Assembly: GCF_003334385.1 (NCBI RefSeq)
Contig: NZ_QOWN01000113.1
Strand: one strand, 5' to 3'
From: Escherichia coli
GTDB lineage: Bacteria > Pseudomonadota > Gammaproteobacteria > Enterobacterales > Enterobacteriaceae
DNA: 1,431 nt
The first letter of the stretch is position 1, and each line of letters starts with the position of its first letter. Of this stretch, positions 1-1,359 are shown piece after piece. Both the position numbers and the translations under genes were made by a program. The notes below the pieces were generated by a model. The model saw only the letters and a program-made list of their open reading frames with translations, ran no database searches and was not told where the DNA came from.

Positions 1-122
1 CGCTCAAGCAACAGCGCATTCTGGCGCATGATCCGGTAAACACGTTTGGCATTGATCGCAGGCATACCATCAAGTTCGGCCTGTCTGCGAAGCAGCGCCC
101 ATACCCGACGATAACCATACGT
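1..122 (-). pseudogene. insD: Internal fragment of IS2 (IS3 family) transposase orfB/insD; 5' end and insC missing, continues past window start
   Basis: Minus-strand translation of 1-119 reads [40 protein letters not shown], which matches the IS2 InsD protein as I remember it (around residues 46-85). The frame upstream of this ([20 protein letters not shown]) is not InsD, so homology breaks near nt 122/123. No start codon or insC is present. This ORF is not in the supplied track because it runs off the window edge. Confidence 0.75.
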
Positions 123-144
123 GTCACGAACGGTGCAATAGTGA

Positions 145-169
145 TTCTTCCGCAACTTGGGTGGAAGAA
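145..169. repeat. Imperfect inverted repeat / hairpin (TTCTTCCGC-aacttgg-GTGGAAGAA)
   Basis: 145-151 TTCTTCC is the exact reverse complement of 163-169 GGAAGAA. The stem extends to 9 bp with one G-T pair (152/162) and a C-G pair (153/161), around a 7-nt loop. It lies 22 bp right of the IS2 junction and 47 bp upstream of the ORF start. No T-run follows on either strand, so it is not an intrinsic terminator. Confidence 0.4.
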
Positions 170-216
170 AATGGATGAAACTTTCTGGTGAACAAAGATC
201 TAAGCTGTTTTAAGTC

Positions 217-1359
217 ATGGGCAACTCAATGCACTCTCTTAAGACACTTCTACAGTTACCTTGCGGATGGCGATGCAGTCGACAAATTATTAGCTCTGAC
301 GGTATAACCCTCCATCTCCACGGAAAACGCAACACAGCACAATGTCCTGAATGCTTTAAGCGTAGCGACTCTGTTCATAGTTGTCGTCGGCGCCGGATAC
401 AGCATCTACCCTGCTCAGGACATACGCTATGGCTTGTATTTTCCGTCCGCCACTGGTACTGCCGTAACCCGGCTTGTTCACGTAAAATTTTTGCCGAGTC
501 GCTTGCTCCCTTCGCCGGTTCACACCAACAGTCTTCACTGGCGTTACAAAATTTACAACGTCAACTGGGATTAATCGCCGGAGGTGAGGCCGGGAAACGG
601 GTAGCAACGGCAGTGGGTCTCCGTTGCAGTGCTGATACTCTCCTTCGCAGGGTTATCAATACCCCGGAGACGAAACAGTCAGGCGCGCCTCATGTCGGTA
701 TTGATGAGTGGGCGTGGCATCGGGGCCACCGTTACGGTACGTTAATCGTCAATCTTGATACTCACCGTCCCCTCGTCCTGCTTCCCGGCCGTGATCAGCG
801 TACGCTGGCGACCTGGTTCAGAAAATATCCGGAAATACAGATTGTCTCGCGTGATCGCAGTGGAGTCTATGCGACAGCAGCACGTGAAGGTGCACCTCAG
901 GCCAGACAGGTGGCCGATCGATGGCATCTGCTAAAAAATATTGGCGATGCGCCTGAACGAATGATGTACAGACATATACCTCTGATACGTCTTGTTGCCA
1001 GTGAGTTGTCACCAAAGAAATCACCTGATCCAGAACCATCTGTGCCTGCAGCATCGCTCCGTCGTTCGGAACGCCTAAAACAACAAACCCGCAAAAAACG
1101 GCATCAGCGTTGGACAGAGGTTATGGCCCTGCATAACAAGGGATGTAGTTTCAGGGAAATATCCCGTATTACAGGCCTGTCGCGTGTGACAGTCAGTCGC
1201 TGGGGGCGTTCAGGAACATTCCCTGAAATGTCAACCCGGCCTCCAAAGCTAGGGCTTCTGGCCCCATGGAGGGAGTGGTTAAAAGAGCAACGAGAAAGTG
1301 GTAATTATAACGCTAGCCGGATATGGCGGGAAATGGTGGCCCGGGGATTTACAGCATAA
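217..1359 (+). CDS. ISL3-family-like transposase with atypical C-terminus (possibly inactive, chimeric or domesticated)
   Basis: 380-aa ORF with ATG at 217, an in-frame TAA at 211-213 just upstream, and stop TAA at 1360-1362. The N-terminus (LLQLP...CPECFKRSDSVHS...RRIQHLPCSGHTLWLVFSVRHWYCRNPACSRKIFAE) fits the zf-ISL3 pattern. An HTH-like stretch covers aa ~108-146. DDE-core motifs are present: GIDEWAW (Asp at nt 703-705), VSRDRSG (Asp at nt 853-855) and VADRWHLLKN (nt 916-918), comparable to the WDE / MDM / DRFH motifs of ISL3 transposases such as IS1167. No obvious Shine-Dalgarno sequence precedes the ATG. Confidence 0.8.
   Translation: MGNSMHSLKTLLQLPCGWRCSRQIISSDGITLHLHGKRNTAQCPECFKRSDSVHSCRRRRIQHLPCSGHTLWLVFSVRHWYCRNPACSRKIFAESLAPFAGSHQQSSLALQNLQRQLGLIAGGEAGKRVATAVGLRCSADTLLRRVINTPETKQSGAPHVGIDEWAWHRGHRYGTLIVNLDTHRPLVLLPGRDQRTLATWFRKYPEIQIVSRDRSGVYATAAREGAPQARQVADRWHLLKNIGDAPERMMYRHIPLIRLVASELSPKKSPDPEPSVPAASLRRSERLKQQTRKKRHQRWTEVMALHNKGCSFREISRITGLSRVTVSRWGRSGTFPEMSTRPPKLGLLAPWREWLKEQRESGNYNASRIWREMVARGFTA
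343..477 (+). other. Zinc-finger region (CxxC ... CxxxxC) of the ISL3-type N-terminal domain
   Basis: Cys43/Cys46 (CPEC) and Cys82/Cys87 (YCRNPAC) are spaced as in ISL3 transposase zinc fingers, with the conserved HLP..G..L.L....R.W.C block between them. Confidence 0.6.
1108..1206 (+). other. Second, C-terminal helix-turn-helix motif within the transposase-like ORF
   Basis: aa 298-330, RWTEVMALHNKGCSFREISRITGLSRVTVSRWG, has the classic L...G.S.REI....G.SR.TVSRW HTH signature. It is followed by RPPKLGLLAPWREWLKEQRESGNYNASRIWREMVARGF, which resembles the segment after the HTH in IS21 IstA and IS481-type transposases. Confidence 0.55.

What the first reader, a model, noticed from the sequence alone, without database searches (positions are those of the whole stretch)
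1108..1359. C-terminal HTH module resembling the N-terminal DNA-binding module of IS21 IstA / IS481-type transposases, cut short by a stop
aa 298-377 (HTH, then RPPKLGLLAPWREWLKEQRESGNYNASRIWREMVARGF) follow the pattern seen at the N-terminus of IS21 IstA: HTH, then a K.KL.PF..YI..RL.E...N...I..EI...GY.G block. The ORF stops right after GFTA, with two in-frame TAA codons at 1360-1362 and 1369-1371, and the other frames do not continue an IstA-like sequence. The ORF therefore ends with a DNA-binding module and no catalytic domain behind it. In ISL3 proteins the HTH normally sits between the zinc finger and the DDE domain, so this protein would carry two HTH modules.
Basis: partly seen in the sequence, partly recalled or inferred. 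Interest (0 to 1): 0.45.

Follow-up and report, generated by a model that had tools for sequence, protein, structure and literature searches.

The report
ISEc38 transposase cut by IS186
The IS21-like DNA-binding module is real, but it only looks C-terminal because a second jumping gene (IS186/IS421) landed inside an ISEc38 transposase gene. In intact copies the module sits in the middle of the catalytic domain, an architecture I found described nowhere, shared by a large group of ISL3-type elements that also have unusual ends.

Summary
Residues 298-379 of the 380-aa ORF (217-1359) are an HTH followed by a second HTH. Together they are homologous to the N-terminal HTH-1/HTH-2 tandem of IS21 IstA (NCBIfam IS21 model positions 2-104, E=1.4e-17; IS5376 IstA, PDB 8B4H/8Q4D residues 9-104, profile E=4e-24). 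IS481 likeness is not supported.

The reading 'C-terminal module, no catalytic domain' is an artefact. The window is three nested insertion sequences:
- 1-121 is IS2.
- 122-1354 is the left 1233 bp of ISEc38 (ISL3 family).
- 1355-1431 is the left end of IS186/IS421, whose terminal repeat supplies both TAA stops.

Intact ISEc38 transposase is 539 aa. The IstA-like tandem lies inside its DDE domain, between D213 and E508, on flexible linkers. A pan-bacterial ISL3 subclade shares this architecture (at least 569 loci in species-representative genomes).

That subclade also has bipartite ends of about 43 bp. The canonical ISL3 repeat lies 21 nt inside a TGT...ACA tip. Target duplications are about 5 bp (4-7 bp at 11 sites). 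Module-less ISKox3 makes 8 bp.

I infer, without proof, that the tandem HTH binds the outer 21-nt box. The window itself is ordinary IS debris. The family architecture is a new variant of a known kind.

The parts
1..121 (-). Fragment of IS2 (IS3 family) transposase gene orfB. This is the DNA into which ISEc38 inserted. The last 5 bp (117-121, ATACG) are the expected target duplication.
   Evidence: 100% identical over all 121 nt to multi-copy 'IS3 family transposase' DNA in 4249 E. coli genomes. Features under the match include 'IS3-like element IS2 family transposase'. My own reading of the minus strand gives [40 protein letters not shown].
122..1354 (+). Left 1233 bp of ISEc38 (ISL3 family; intact element 1764 bp, TGTCA...TGACA).
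   Evidence: 98.5-99.1% identity to annotated ISEc38 copies, with the match ending at 1354 in every record. Element boundaries come from 8 copies plus an empty site.
122..142 (+). Outer 21-nt terminal box of ISEc38 (TGTCACGAACGGTGCAATAGT, 'A' type) with the 5'-TGT tip.
   Evidence: Present at both ends of all full copies. Target duplications abut it. TGT sits 21 nt outside the inner repeat in 24 of 87 ends across phyla, against about 1.4 expected by chance.
143..166 (+). Inner inverted repeat of canonical ISL3 type (GATTCTTCCGCAACTTGGGTGGAA; GGYTCTTCCGCAAC in other copies).
   Evidence: Paired with the right-end copy in intact elements. Same motif class as the tip of module-less ISKox3, GGGTCTTCC.
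217..1359 (+). Truncated ISEc38 transposase ORF (379 native residues, then Ala, then stop). It has 8 non-synonymous and 2 synonymous differences from the reference copy.
   Evidence: NCBIfam transpos_ISL3 scores 260.8 bits (cut-off 180) over model positions 1-251 of 370.
334..657 (+). Usual ISL3 N-terminal DNA-binding region: Zn ribbon (aa 40-84) and three-helix HTH (aa 108-147).
   Evidence: Pfam Zn_ribbon_ISL3 E=8e-7. Helices 108-120, 123-132 and 139-147 in the AlphaFold model. Conserved CPxC and GGEAG...DTLLR motifs.
691..1008 (+). First half of the DDE catalytic domain (RNase H-like strands and helices, aa 159-264), with D163 (703-705) and D213 (853-855).
   Evidence: Pfam DDE_Tnp_ISL3 model 1-105 at aa 160-257. 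D163 and D213 are invariant in 24 homologues. Secondary structure.
1063..1353 (+). IstA-like tandem HTH module, truncated. It comprises a lead-in helix (aa 283-301), HTH-1 (aa 302-332; nt 1120-1212), a linker (aa 333-348) and the first two helices of HTH-2 (aa 349-379; nt 1261-1353). The HTH-2 recognition helix (aa 382-393) is missing.
   Evidence: Residue mapping to IstA from the alignment and PMC10122671.
1355..1431 (+). Left end of IS186/IS421 (IS4 family): 23-bp terminal repeat CATAAGCGCTAACTTAAGGGTTG (1355-1377) and the start of its transposase gene (ATG 1410-1412, MNYSHDN...).
   Evidence: 94-97% identity to DNA annotated 'IS4-like element IS421 family transposase'. The repeat and the 55-nt distance to the CDS start match the copy in yeaR.
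1357..1359 (+). Stop codon TAA that ends the ORF. It lies inside the IS186/IS421 terminal repeat. The second in-frame TAA (1369-1371) lies there too.

Best explanation
The window is a nest of insertion sequences. An ISEc38 element (ISL3 family) inserted into IS2. Later an IS186/IS421 element inserted into the ISEc38 transposase gene after codon 379. The 'C-terminal HTH module cut short by a stop' is therefore the middle of a 539-aa transposase. This copy is dead: it lacks the HTH-2 recognition helix, the all-alpha domain and the catalytic glutamate E508.

In intact ISEc38 the module is a genuine homologue of the IS21 IstA HTH-1/linker/HTH-2 tandem. It is inserted on flexible linkers inside the ISL3 DDE domain, after the RNase H-like core (D163, D213) and before the alpha-helical domain and the E508 helix. 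All of this is shown.

Also shown: the architecture defines a large, old, pan-bacterial subclade of ISL3 transposases. Elements of that subclade have bipartite ends in which the canonical ISL3 repeat lies 21 nt inside a TGT...ACA tip. They make target duplications of about 5 bp instead of the family's usual 8 bp.

Inferred (about 45% confidence): the captured IstA-type tandem binds the extra outer 21-nt box, as IstA binds its ~23-bp terminal repeats. The ancestral Zn-ribbon/HTH would hold the inner repeat. The tandem would thereby place the new TGT tip, two helical turns further out, in the active site.
For: Truncation: homology to ISEc38 stops at 1354 in all records, and 1355 onward is the IS186/IS421 end. 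The intact gene is 1620 nt / 539 aa.

Internal position: Pfam DDE_Tnp_ISL3 is split, with model 1-135 at aa 160-295 and model 116-240 at aa 413-534. The AlphaFold model (pLDDT 87.7) shows the order: core, disordered 265-282, helices 283-393, disordered 394-408, alpha domain, E508 helix.

Homology to IstA: E=1.4e-17, 1.5e-11, 4.3e-24, and Foldseek 3.7e-4. Other transposase models match far more weakly and over HTH-1 only (IS630 1.4e-4; IS1 5e-4). The IstA DNA-contact residues R31 and K95 (PMC10122671) correspond to R323 (23 of 24 sequences conserved) and R386 (16 of 24).

Distribution: 3126 library hits to the module at E<=1e-3. Nearly all of the top 150 are collinear ISL3 proteins of 530-590 aa or their fragments. 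At least 569 loci in species-representative genomes span at least 10 phyla.

Ends: TGT lies 21 nt outside the inner repeat in 24 of 87 ends, and 36 of 87 fall within -19 to -22, against about 1.4 per offset expected by chance. Left-right identity over the outer 21 nt is 42%, against 27% further out.

Target duplications at the TGT...ACA boundary: CCATG, AGTAC, CAAAC, CCTCTG; GCTCC, TACGCT, ACCTC, CTGC, CGGCC, GGCCAGG, CGTGG. An empty site for the L001 copy confirms the boundary.

Control: module-less ISKox3 has GGGTCTTCC tips and an 8-bp duplication, proven by a 100% empty-site match. [quoted passage not shown]
Against: No experiment or protein-DNA model links the module to the outer box, so the coupling is a phyletic co-occurrence. 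Only 36 of 87 surveyed ends show the TGT at the expected offset. Some elements have other tips (CTGGAC, TGATC, TGCAAAAT). Two copies (L013, L022) looked at first like canonical ends. Module-less controls with proven ends number only two closely related elements plus one literature case. A rough NJ tree did not group elements by end type. I could not consult ISfinder, so the ends, the duplication length or the domain may already be recorded there.
Confidence: 0.85

Rival explanations
1. One reading: a naturally short protein that ends with a DNA-binding module and has no catalytic domain, such as a transposase-derived regulator or inhibitor.
For: The ORF as it stands retains the Zn ribbon, the first HTH, HTH-1 and two of three catalytic residues. 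In other IS families, truncated transposases can act as inhibitors (from general knowledge).
Against: The stop is supplied by a foreign IS end. No record in 5426 E. coli genomes or 72,556 plasmids carries this junction, so it is a single event, not a conserved gene form. The HTH-2 recognition helix is cut off. The 8 non-synonymous to 2 synonymous changes include L246P, V330G and D349A in conserved positions.
Confidence: 0.03
2. The segment is the N-terminus of an ordinary IS21- or IS481-type transposase fused to, or overlapping, an ISL3 gene fragment.
For: There is sequence homology to IstA residues 9-104.
Against: In intact copies the module is followed in frame by the second half of DDE_Tnp_ISL3, not by an rve domain. 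The IS21 model scores 60.7 bits against a 160-bit cut-off and matches only positions 2-104. The 1764-bp element has no istB. The same collinear architecture is conserved at 30-45% identity across phyla. No IS481 model hit appears.
Confidence: 0.01
3. The internal IstA-like tandem is real but does not read the outer 21-nt box. It could instead mediate oligomerisation (IstA HTH-1 sits at the core of the IstA tetramer), autoregulate transcription, or bind target DNA. The outer box would then be read by another part of the protein or by a host factor.
For: In IstA, HTH-1 and HTH-2 make extensive protein-protein contacts in the tetramer (PMC10122671). T383, the equivalent of IstA T92, is variable. 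The outer box is only moderately conserved between left and right ends (42%). No internal extra copies of the box exist.
Against: The base-contacting arginine R323 is nearly invariant and R386 is mostly conserved. Module and outer box co-occur across at least 10 phyla and are both absent from ISKox3. The 21-nt box length is close to the 23-bp spacing of IstA's terminal repeats.
Confidence: 0.3
4. The outer boxes are not part of the IS proper. A canonical ISL3 element sits inside a short palindromic 'shell' (a MITE-like element or preferred target) that is moved by some other means.
For: The two box types A and B are found in either orientation relative to the transposase gene, as expected if a core could sit either way round in a shell.
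Against: There is no 8-bp duplication at the core/shell junction (GCAATAGT vs ACTTTTCA). The empty site lacks the whole 1764 bp and keeps one copy of CCATG. The box at a fixed 21-nt offset is conserved from Proteobacteria to Actinobacteria and Bacteroidetes, which fits co-evolution with the transposase.
Confidence: 0.05
5. The ISEc38/IS186 junction is an assembly chimera rather than a real insertion.
For: Both elements are multi-copy repeats, and the junction is in no searched record.
Against: The break falls exactly at the first base of the IS186/IS421 terminal repeat. The site, CCCGGGGATTTACAG, closely resembles a genuine IS421 target in yeaR, CCCGGGGGTTTACCC.
Confidence: 0.03

Closest known systems
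ISEc38 (ISL3 family insertion sequence of Escherichia coli; transposase WP_075262665.1)
   Same: Window 122-1354 is 98.5-99.1% identical to its left 1233 bp. The ORF is its transposase through codon 379.
   Different: This copy is interrupted by IS186/IS421, sits in IS2 and carries 8 amino-acid changes. It cannot encode an active enzyme.
IS21-family transposase IstA, N-terminal HTH-1 / minor-groove linker / HTH-2 tandem (IS5376; PDB 8B4H, 8Q4D; PMC10122671)
   Same: Homologous over IstA residues 9-104 (E=4e-24 with a profile). It has the same helix order. Arginines are conserved at the positions of the DNA-contacting R31 and K95. Tips are TG...CA and duplications are short.
   Different: The tandem lies in the middle of an ISL3-type DDE domain, not at the N-terminus of an rve-type one. 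There is no IstB helper and there are no repeated L1/L2-type copies of the box. The IS21 model scores far below its cut-off.
Canonical ISL3 elements without the module (ISKox3, ISCfr12, ISEc53, IS1165; CLJ-ISL3 in PMC7643977)
   Same: They share the Zn ribbon, HTH, DDE_Tnp_ISL3 catalytic domain and a GGNTCTTCC-type inverted repeat. All are single-ORF elements.
   Different: Their transposases are 400-412 aa, not 515-590 aa. Their repeat is at the very tip. They make 8-bp duplications (ISKox3 proven with an empty site; ISCfr12; CLJ-ISL3). ISEc38-group elements add about 115-140 aa inside the DDE domain and 21 nt outside each repeat, and they make duplications of about 5 bp.
IS256-family ISCth4 transposase and hAT transposase Hermes (solved structures)
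   Same: These are the best whole-chain fold matches (ISCth4 6xg8_A E=2.7e-5; Hermes 8edg_A E=3.7e-3). They have an RNase H-like core with an alpha-helical domain between the second Asp and the Glu.
   Different: Identity is 10-12% and TM-scores are low (0.2-0.3) because of domain arrangement. Neither carries an IstA-type tandem at this position.
IS186 / IS421 (IS4 family)
   Same: Window 1355-1431 matches its terminal repeat and the first 7 codons of its transposase. The insertion is into a G/C-rich GGGG-containing site.
   Different: Only 77 nt are in the window, so the far junction and the target duplication cannot be seen.

Membership tests
ISL3 family (transposase) | N-terminal zinc ribbon (Pfam Zn_ribbon_ISL3) | tested here: met
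   E=8.1e-7 at aa 41-84 of the window ORF. The CPxC motif is invariant in 24 homologues.
ISL3 family (transposase) | DDE_Tnp_ISL3 catalytic domain with D, D, E | tested here: met
   Intact ISEc38 matches in two pieces, E=1.2e-19 and 1.5e-13, split by about 117 aa. D163, D213 and E508 are invariant. The window ORF holds only the first half.
ISL3 family (transposase) | NCBIfam NF033550 transpos_ISL3 above the curated cut-off (180 bits) | tested here: met
   376.3 bits for the intact protein and 260.8 bits for the window ORF.
ISL3 family (element) | Terminal inverted repeats beginning GG(C/G/T)TCTT... at the very tips | tested here: not met
   The motif is present but lies 21 nt inside the true tips (TGTCA...TGACA), as shown by 8 copies, an empty site and the cross-phylum survey.
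ISL3 family (element) | 8-bp target site duplication | tested here: not met
   ISEc38 gives 5, 5, 5 and 6 bp. Relatives give 4-7 bp, mode 5. ISKox3 control gives 8 bp. The 8-bp norm is cited from PMC7643977.
IS21 family | IstA transposase with rve-type DDE domain; whole-protein match to NF033546 (cut-off 160 bits) | tested here: not met
   60.7 bits, matching model positions 2-104 only. The catalytic domain is ISL3-type.
IS21 family | Second gene istB (AAA+ helper) | tested here: not met
   The 1764-bp element has a single annotated CDS of 1620 nt.
IS21 family | N-terminal HTH-1/HTH-2 end-binding tandem | tested here: met
   Homologous to IstA residues 9-104, E=4.3e-24, but located internally.
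IS21 family | 5'-TG...CA-3' tips with several repeated binding sites per end (L1/L2, R1/R2) | tested here: inconclusive
   TGT...ACA tips are met. Only one outer box per end was found, with no further copies at up to 8 mismatches.
IS481 family | Similarity of the segment to the IS481 N-terminal DNA-binding region | tested here: not met
   No IS481 model appears among NCBIfam hits at E<=1 for the module, the intact protein or the window ORF.
IS186/IS421 (IS4 family), for nt 1355-1431 | 23-bp terminal repeat CATAAGCGCTAACTTAAGGGTTG and transposase start 55 nt inside | tested here: met
   Identical to the copy in yeaR, whose two ends form the inverted repeat and are flanked by an 11-bp duplication.
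IS186/IS421 (IS4 family), for nt 1355-1431 | Target duplication of about 10-12 bp at both junctions | not testable with these tools
   The window ends 77 nt into the element, and no database record holds this junction.

The most novel reading that the evidence does not exclude
ISEc38-group elements are functional hybrids of two IS families. An ISL3 catalytic core captured the end-binding tandem HTH of an IS21-type IstA together with an IstA-style terminal site (a 21-nt box ending in TG...CA). The capture moved the cleavage point two helical turns outward from the ancestral ISL3 repeat and changed the target duplication from 8 to about 5 bp. If so, end recognition, tip sequence and staggered-cut spacing of a DDE transposase were re-specified by one domain insertion. 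Catalogued boundaries of such elements would be 21 bp short wherever they were drawn at the canonical repeat; I could not check any catalogue entry.
Probability: 0.4. Interest if true: 0.65.

Novelty: new variant of a known kind. Interest (0 to 1): 0.42.

Why it matters
For the window itself it matters little. It is a dead, twice-nested insertion sequence of a common, catalogued type, and the apparent 'C-terminal DNA-binding protein' should not be annotated as a gene product with a function.

The family behind it is more interesting. A very widespread group of ISL3-type elements, including ISEc38, which matched DNA in 3962 of 5426 complete E. coli genomes, carries another family's end-binding module in the middle of its catalytic domain. 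The same group has ends and target duplications that break the ISL3 rules.

There are two consequences:
- Practical: tools or curators that place ISL3 boundaries at the GGCTCTTCC repeat and expect 8-bp duplications would mis-call the ends of these elements by 21 bp per side and miss their 5-bp duplications.
- Mechanistic: it is a natural experiment on how DDE transposases couple end recognition to the cleavage position and to the spacing of the target cuts. The closely related module-less ISKox3 in the same hosts is a ready control.

Tried and rejected
1. I first thought the 21-nt outer box was an ISEc38 peculiarity, then that it was absent from some module-bearing relatives (L013 with an apparent 6-bp duplication, L022 with an apparent 8-bp one). 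On re-inspection L022's right end carries TGTCAAGCGCATCTGAAATTT, and its 'duplication' AAATTTCA lies in a palindrome. The 80-locus survey settled the matter in favour of a family-wide box.

2. The 'canonical IS nested in a palindromic shell' model was rejected. There is no 8-bp duplication at the inner junction, and the empty site lacks all 1764 bp.

3. The word-indexed protein search with the module returned only short fragments and said nothing about architecture. The exhaustive search was needed.

4. The search for related loci with the module-only alignment failed for lack of a conserved 7-10-column stretch. The full-length alignment worked.

5. A scan for extra internal copies of the outer boxes (IS21-style multiple repeats) found none.

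6. A rough NJ tree did not separate elements by end type and is not informative.

7. Ends of ISEc53, IS1165, ISAtc1 and two other module-less copies could not be defined from single loci. The module-less control therefore rests on ISKox3, ISCfr12 and the literature.

8. Literature searches for ISEc38, for ISL3 with IS21/HTH/insertion domain, and for ISL3 domain architecture found only surveillance lists and no description of the module or the ends.

9. IS481 likeness was rejected, with no model hit.
Full report
**1. The observation.** The window has one long ORF, 217-1359 on the + strand, of 380 aa.

Pfam gives only generic helix-turn-helix matches at aa 293-331 (HTH_7 E=7e-4, HTH_38 E=2.5e-3). 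The specific claim of likeness to IS21 IstA holds up strongly:
- The module of the intact homologue matches NCBIfam NF033546 (transpos_IS21) at model positions 2-104 of 294 with E=1.4e-17.
- The window's own truncated ORF matches it at aa 303-379 with E=6.7e-9.
- Against all PDB sequences the module hits IS5376 IstA (8Q4D, 8B4H) residues 10-106 at E=1.5e-11.
- A 24-sequence profile of the module hits IstA residues 9-104 at E=4.3e-24.

The next-best transposase models (IS630, IS1, IS3) are 13 or more orders of magnitude weaker. No IS481 model appears.

There is one slip. The first stop is TAA at 1357-1359, not 1360-1362. The second TAA at 1369-1371 is right.

**2. What the window is.** A megablast against 5426 complete E. 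coli genomes shows that 122-1354 is the left part of ISEc38. NCBI annotates this element as 'ISL3-like element ISEc38 family transposase'. Identity is 98.5-99.1%, and in every record the match stops at 1354.

From 1355 on, the sequence is the left end of IS186/IS421:
- It has the 23-bp terminal repeat CATAAGCGCTAACTTAAGGGTTG.
- The transposase start codon lies 55 nt inside (1410-1412).
- Both features match a copy in yeaR, whose two ends form the inverted repeat and are flanked by an 11-bp duplication.

Both TAA codons lie in that repeat. The insertion site in ISEc38 (CCCGGGGATTTACAG) closely resembles the yeaR site (CCCGGGGGTTTACCC), which argues for a real transposition event.

Positions 1-121 are 100% identical to multi-copy IS2 (IS3-family) transposase DNA, read on the minus strand. 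The order of events is therefore IS2, then ISEc38 into IS2, then IS186/IS421 into ISEc38. No searched record holds either junction.

**3. The intact protein.** Intact ISEc38 copies encode 539 aa. Pfam splits the catalytic domain: DDE_Tnp_ISL3 model 1-135 matches aa 160-295, and model 116-240 matches aa 413-534.

An AlphaFold2 model built on 24 homologues (mean pLDDT 87.7) shows this order:
- an RNase H-like core (strands 159-233, with D163 and D213);
- helix 235-264;
- a disordered stretch, 265-282;
- a long helix plus HTH-1 (283-332);
- a linker (333-348);
- HTH-2 (349-393);
- a second disordered stretch (394-408);
- an all-alpha domain (409-499);
- the helix carrying E508.

D163, D213 and E508 are invariant. 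Foldseek against the PDB returns ISCth4 (IS256 family), IstA (through the tandem only, 26% identity) and Hermes.

So the module is an insertion inside the D-to-E spacer of the catalytic domain, tethered by two flexible linkers. The window ORF stops at residue 379. It therefore loses the HTH-2 recognition helix (382-393), the alpha domain and E508. It also carries 8 non-synonymous against 2 synonymous changes relative to the reference, including L246P, V330G and D349A at conserved positions. It is a dead copy.

**4. Relation to IstA.** In the IS5376 IstA-DNA structure, HTH-1 (aa 1-39) and HTH-2 (aa 55-104) each read a GC-rich box of a terminal repeat. [quoted passage not shown] R31, K32, T92 and K95 make major-groove contacts, and the terminal repeats are spaced 23 bp apart (PMC10122671).

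By the alignment, R31 corresponds to R323, conserved in 23 of 24 homologues. K95 corresponds to R386, conserved in 16 of 24. T92 corresponds to T383, which is variable.

**5. Distribution.** An exhaustive phmmer search with the module against 1.84 billion cluster representatives gave 3126 hits at E<=1e-3 and 500 at E<=1e-10. Nearly all of the best 150 are proteins of 530-590 aa, or fragments of them, that align collinearly with the whole ISEc38 transposase at 33-45% identity.

The best 80 all contain the module. They come from Proteobacteria, Chloroflexi, Planctomycetes, Firmicutes, Actinobacteria, Cyanobacteria, Bacteroidetes, Acidobacteria, Myxococcota and Deinococcota.

Module-less ISL3 transposases of 400-412 aa (ISKox3, ISEc53, ISCfr12, IS1165) occur in the same hosts. 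They align across the deletion point in a single piece. The module is thus an old, defining feature of a large ISL3 subclade, not a recent chimera.

**6. Ends and target duplications.** Eight ISEc38 copies and one empty site show that the element is 1764 bp, TGTCA...TGACA. The ISL3-type repeat GGYTCTTCCGCAAC starts 21 nt inside each tip.

Target duplications at four ISEc38 sites are CCATG, AGTAC, CAAAC and CCTCTG.

I then surveyed the 80 genome loci plus the earlier ones:
- 45 elements had a paired inner repeat.
- Among 87 ends, TGT starts exactly 21 nt outside the inner repeat in 24, and within -19 to -22 in 36. Chance alone predicts about 1.4 per offset, and most other offsets held 0-2.
- Left-right identity over the outer 21 nt is 42%, against 27% further out.
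- The consensus end is TGTCAacaaCggttgAAAAgT|GGtTCTTCCGCAatTT.gGTG.
- Of 12 elements with TGT at both ends, 8 have a direct repeat at that exact boundary. Apart from ISEc38 itself these are GCTCC, TACGCT, ACCTC, CTGC, CGGCC, GGCCAGG and CGTGG, from Escherichia albertii, a Phycisphaerae MAG, Azospirillum, an Anaerolinea MAG, Salinispora, Longitalea and Microtetraspora.

As a control, ISKox3 has GGGTCTTCC at the very tip and an 8-bp duplication. A reconstructed empty site matches many plasmids at 100% over 316 nt. ISCfr12 behaves the same way. Eight bp is called the classical ISL3 length in PMC7643977.

**7. Mechanism.**

Shown:
- the truncation by IS186/IS421;
- the internal position of the module and its homology to IstA;
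- its wide distribution;
- the bipartite ends with TGT tips;
- the short duplications;
- the contrast with ISKox3.

Inferred: that the tandem HTH reads the outer 21-nt box and so presents a tip two helical turns beyond the ancestral repeat to the active site, while the Zn-ribbon/HTH reads the inner repeat. The supports are co-occurrence of module and box, the conserved contact arginines and the matching site length. I put this at about 45%.

The main rival is that the module serves oligomerisation or regulation. It is not excluded, because IstA's HTH domains also build the tetramer core.

**8. Comparison and novelty.** By sequence the protein is a member of the ISL3 family (376 bits against a 180-bit cut-off). 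It departs from the family's element-level hallmarks of tip sequence and 8-bp duplication. It is not a member of the IS21 family: it has no rve domain and no istB, and it scores below the cut-off. It shares with that family the end-binding tandem, TG...CA tips and short duplications. The IS21 range of 4-8 bp is from my memory of ISfinder and was not tested here.

ISEc38 itself is catalogued and routinely reported in surveillance papers. I found no paper describing the internal IstA-like module or the extended ends. I file the family architecture as a new variant of a known kind, and the window's feature as an artefact of nested insertion.

**9. Dead ends.** See Tried and rejected. In brief: a premature call of canonical ends in two relatives, a nested-shell model, an uninformative word-indexed protein search, a failed module-only locus search, and undefined ends for several module-less copies.

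Noticed in passing
window 122-142; L001:2502-2522 and 4245-4265; L006, L007, L010, L011 ends: The two outer-box variants of ISEc38 are A (TGTCACGAACGGTGCAATAGT) and B (TGTCAACGACGGATGAAAAGT). They lie A-left/B-right relative to the transposase gene in the window, L001, L008 and L012, but B-left/A-right in L006, L007, L010 and L011. The swapped copy L010 still has a clean 5-bp duplication, so both arrangements transpose. Inversion of the core between the inner repeats would explain this, but it was not tested.
   Followed up: partly
L001:4260-4265 joined to 2502-2522 (equivalent to window 122-142): If the two ends were abutted with a 5-bp spacer, as in a circle or tandem junction, the right tip TTGACA and TGCAAT in the left outer box would form a -35/17-bp/-10 promoter pointing into the transposase gene. 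This resembles the junction promoters of IS21, IS30 and IS3-family elements. It is purely a sequence observation.
   Followed up: no
window 1340-1354 vs L002:1704-1716: The IS186/IS421 insertion site in ISEc38 (CCCGGGGATTTACAG) is nearly the same as the IS421 site in yeaR (CCCGGGGGTTTACCC, 11-bp duplication GGGGTTTACCC). ISEc38 therefore carries a good IS186-type target inside its HTH-2 coding region.
   Followed up: partly
window 217-1353: Against the M8 reference copy the window's ISEc38 gene has 8 non-synonymous and 2 synonymous differences: K39N, Q108L, A129V, L246P, P284S, V330G, R345L and D349A. Several fall at conserved positions, consistent with decay of an inactive copy.
   Followed up: yes
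L019:289-301 and 1618-1630; L105:289-301 and 1618-1630: Module-less ISKox3 and ISCfr12 both sit in targets of the form ACTGT-N8-ACAG(T/G), with the N8 duplicated (TTATGGAT; TTATATAT). This may be a palindromic target preference. The flanking TGT lies 11 nt from the tip, one helical turn less than the 21-nt box of the ISEc38 group.
   Followed up: partly
L016 (NZ_CP024193.1 38224-40641) and rows H97-H113: A relative 75% identical to ISEc38, with TGT-tipped ends, is frameshifted into two ORFs. Many Klebsiella pneumoniae plasmids list it at the same coordinates (38624-40241), so it appears to be a fixed pseudogene copy on a common plasmid backbone.
   Followed up: no
L022:1-320 (Mycetohabitans endofungorum plasmid): An IS21-like element (istB ends at 263) lies directly against the left end of an ISEc38-group element whose left outer box is missing or replaced, while the right box is intact. 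The apparent 8-bp duplication AAATTTCA there is ambiguous because TGAAATTTCA is a palindrome.
   Followed up: partly
protein P0238 (417 aa): One library protein matches the HTH-1 part of the module in seven successive stretches, so it appears to be an array of repeated HTH units. It is unrelated to transposase architecture and was not examined.
   Followed up: no
L094:1282-1385 and about 3100-3203 (Myxococcus sp. CA023): The best inverted repeat around this copy is 104 bp long and runs into coding-like sequence. This suggests two partial copies tail to tail rather than simple ends.
   Followed up: no
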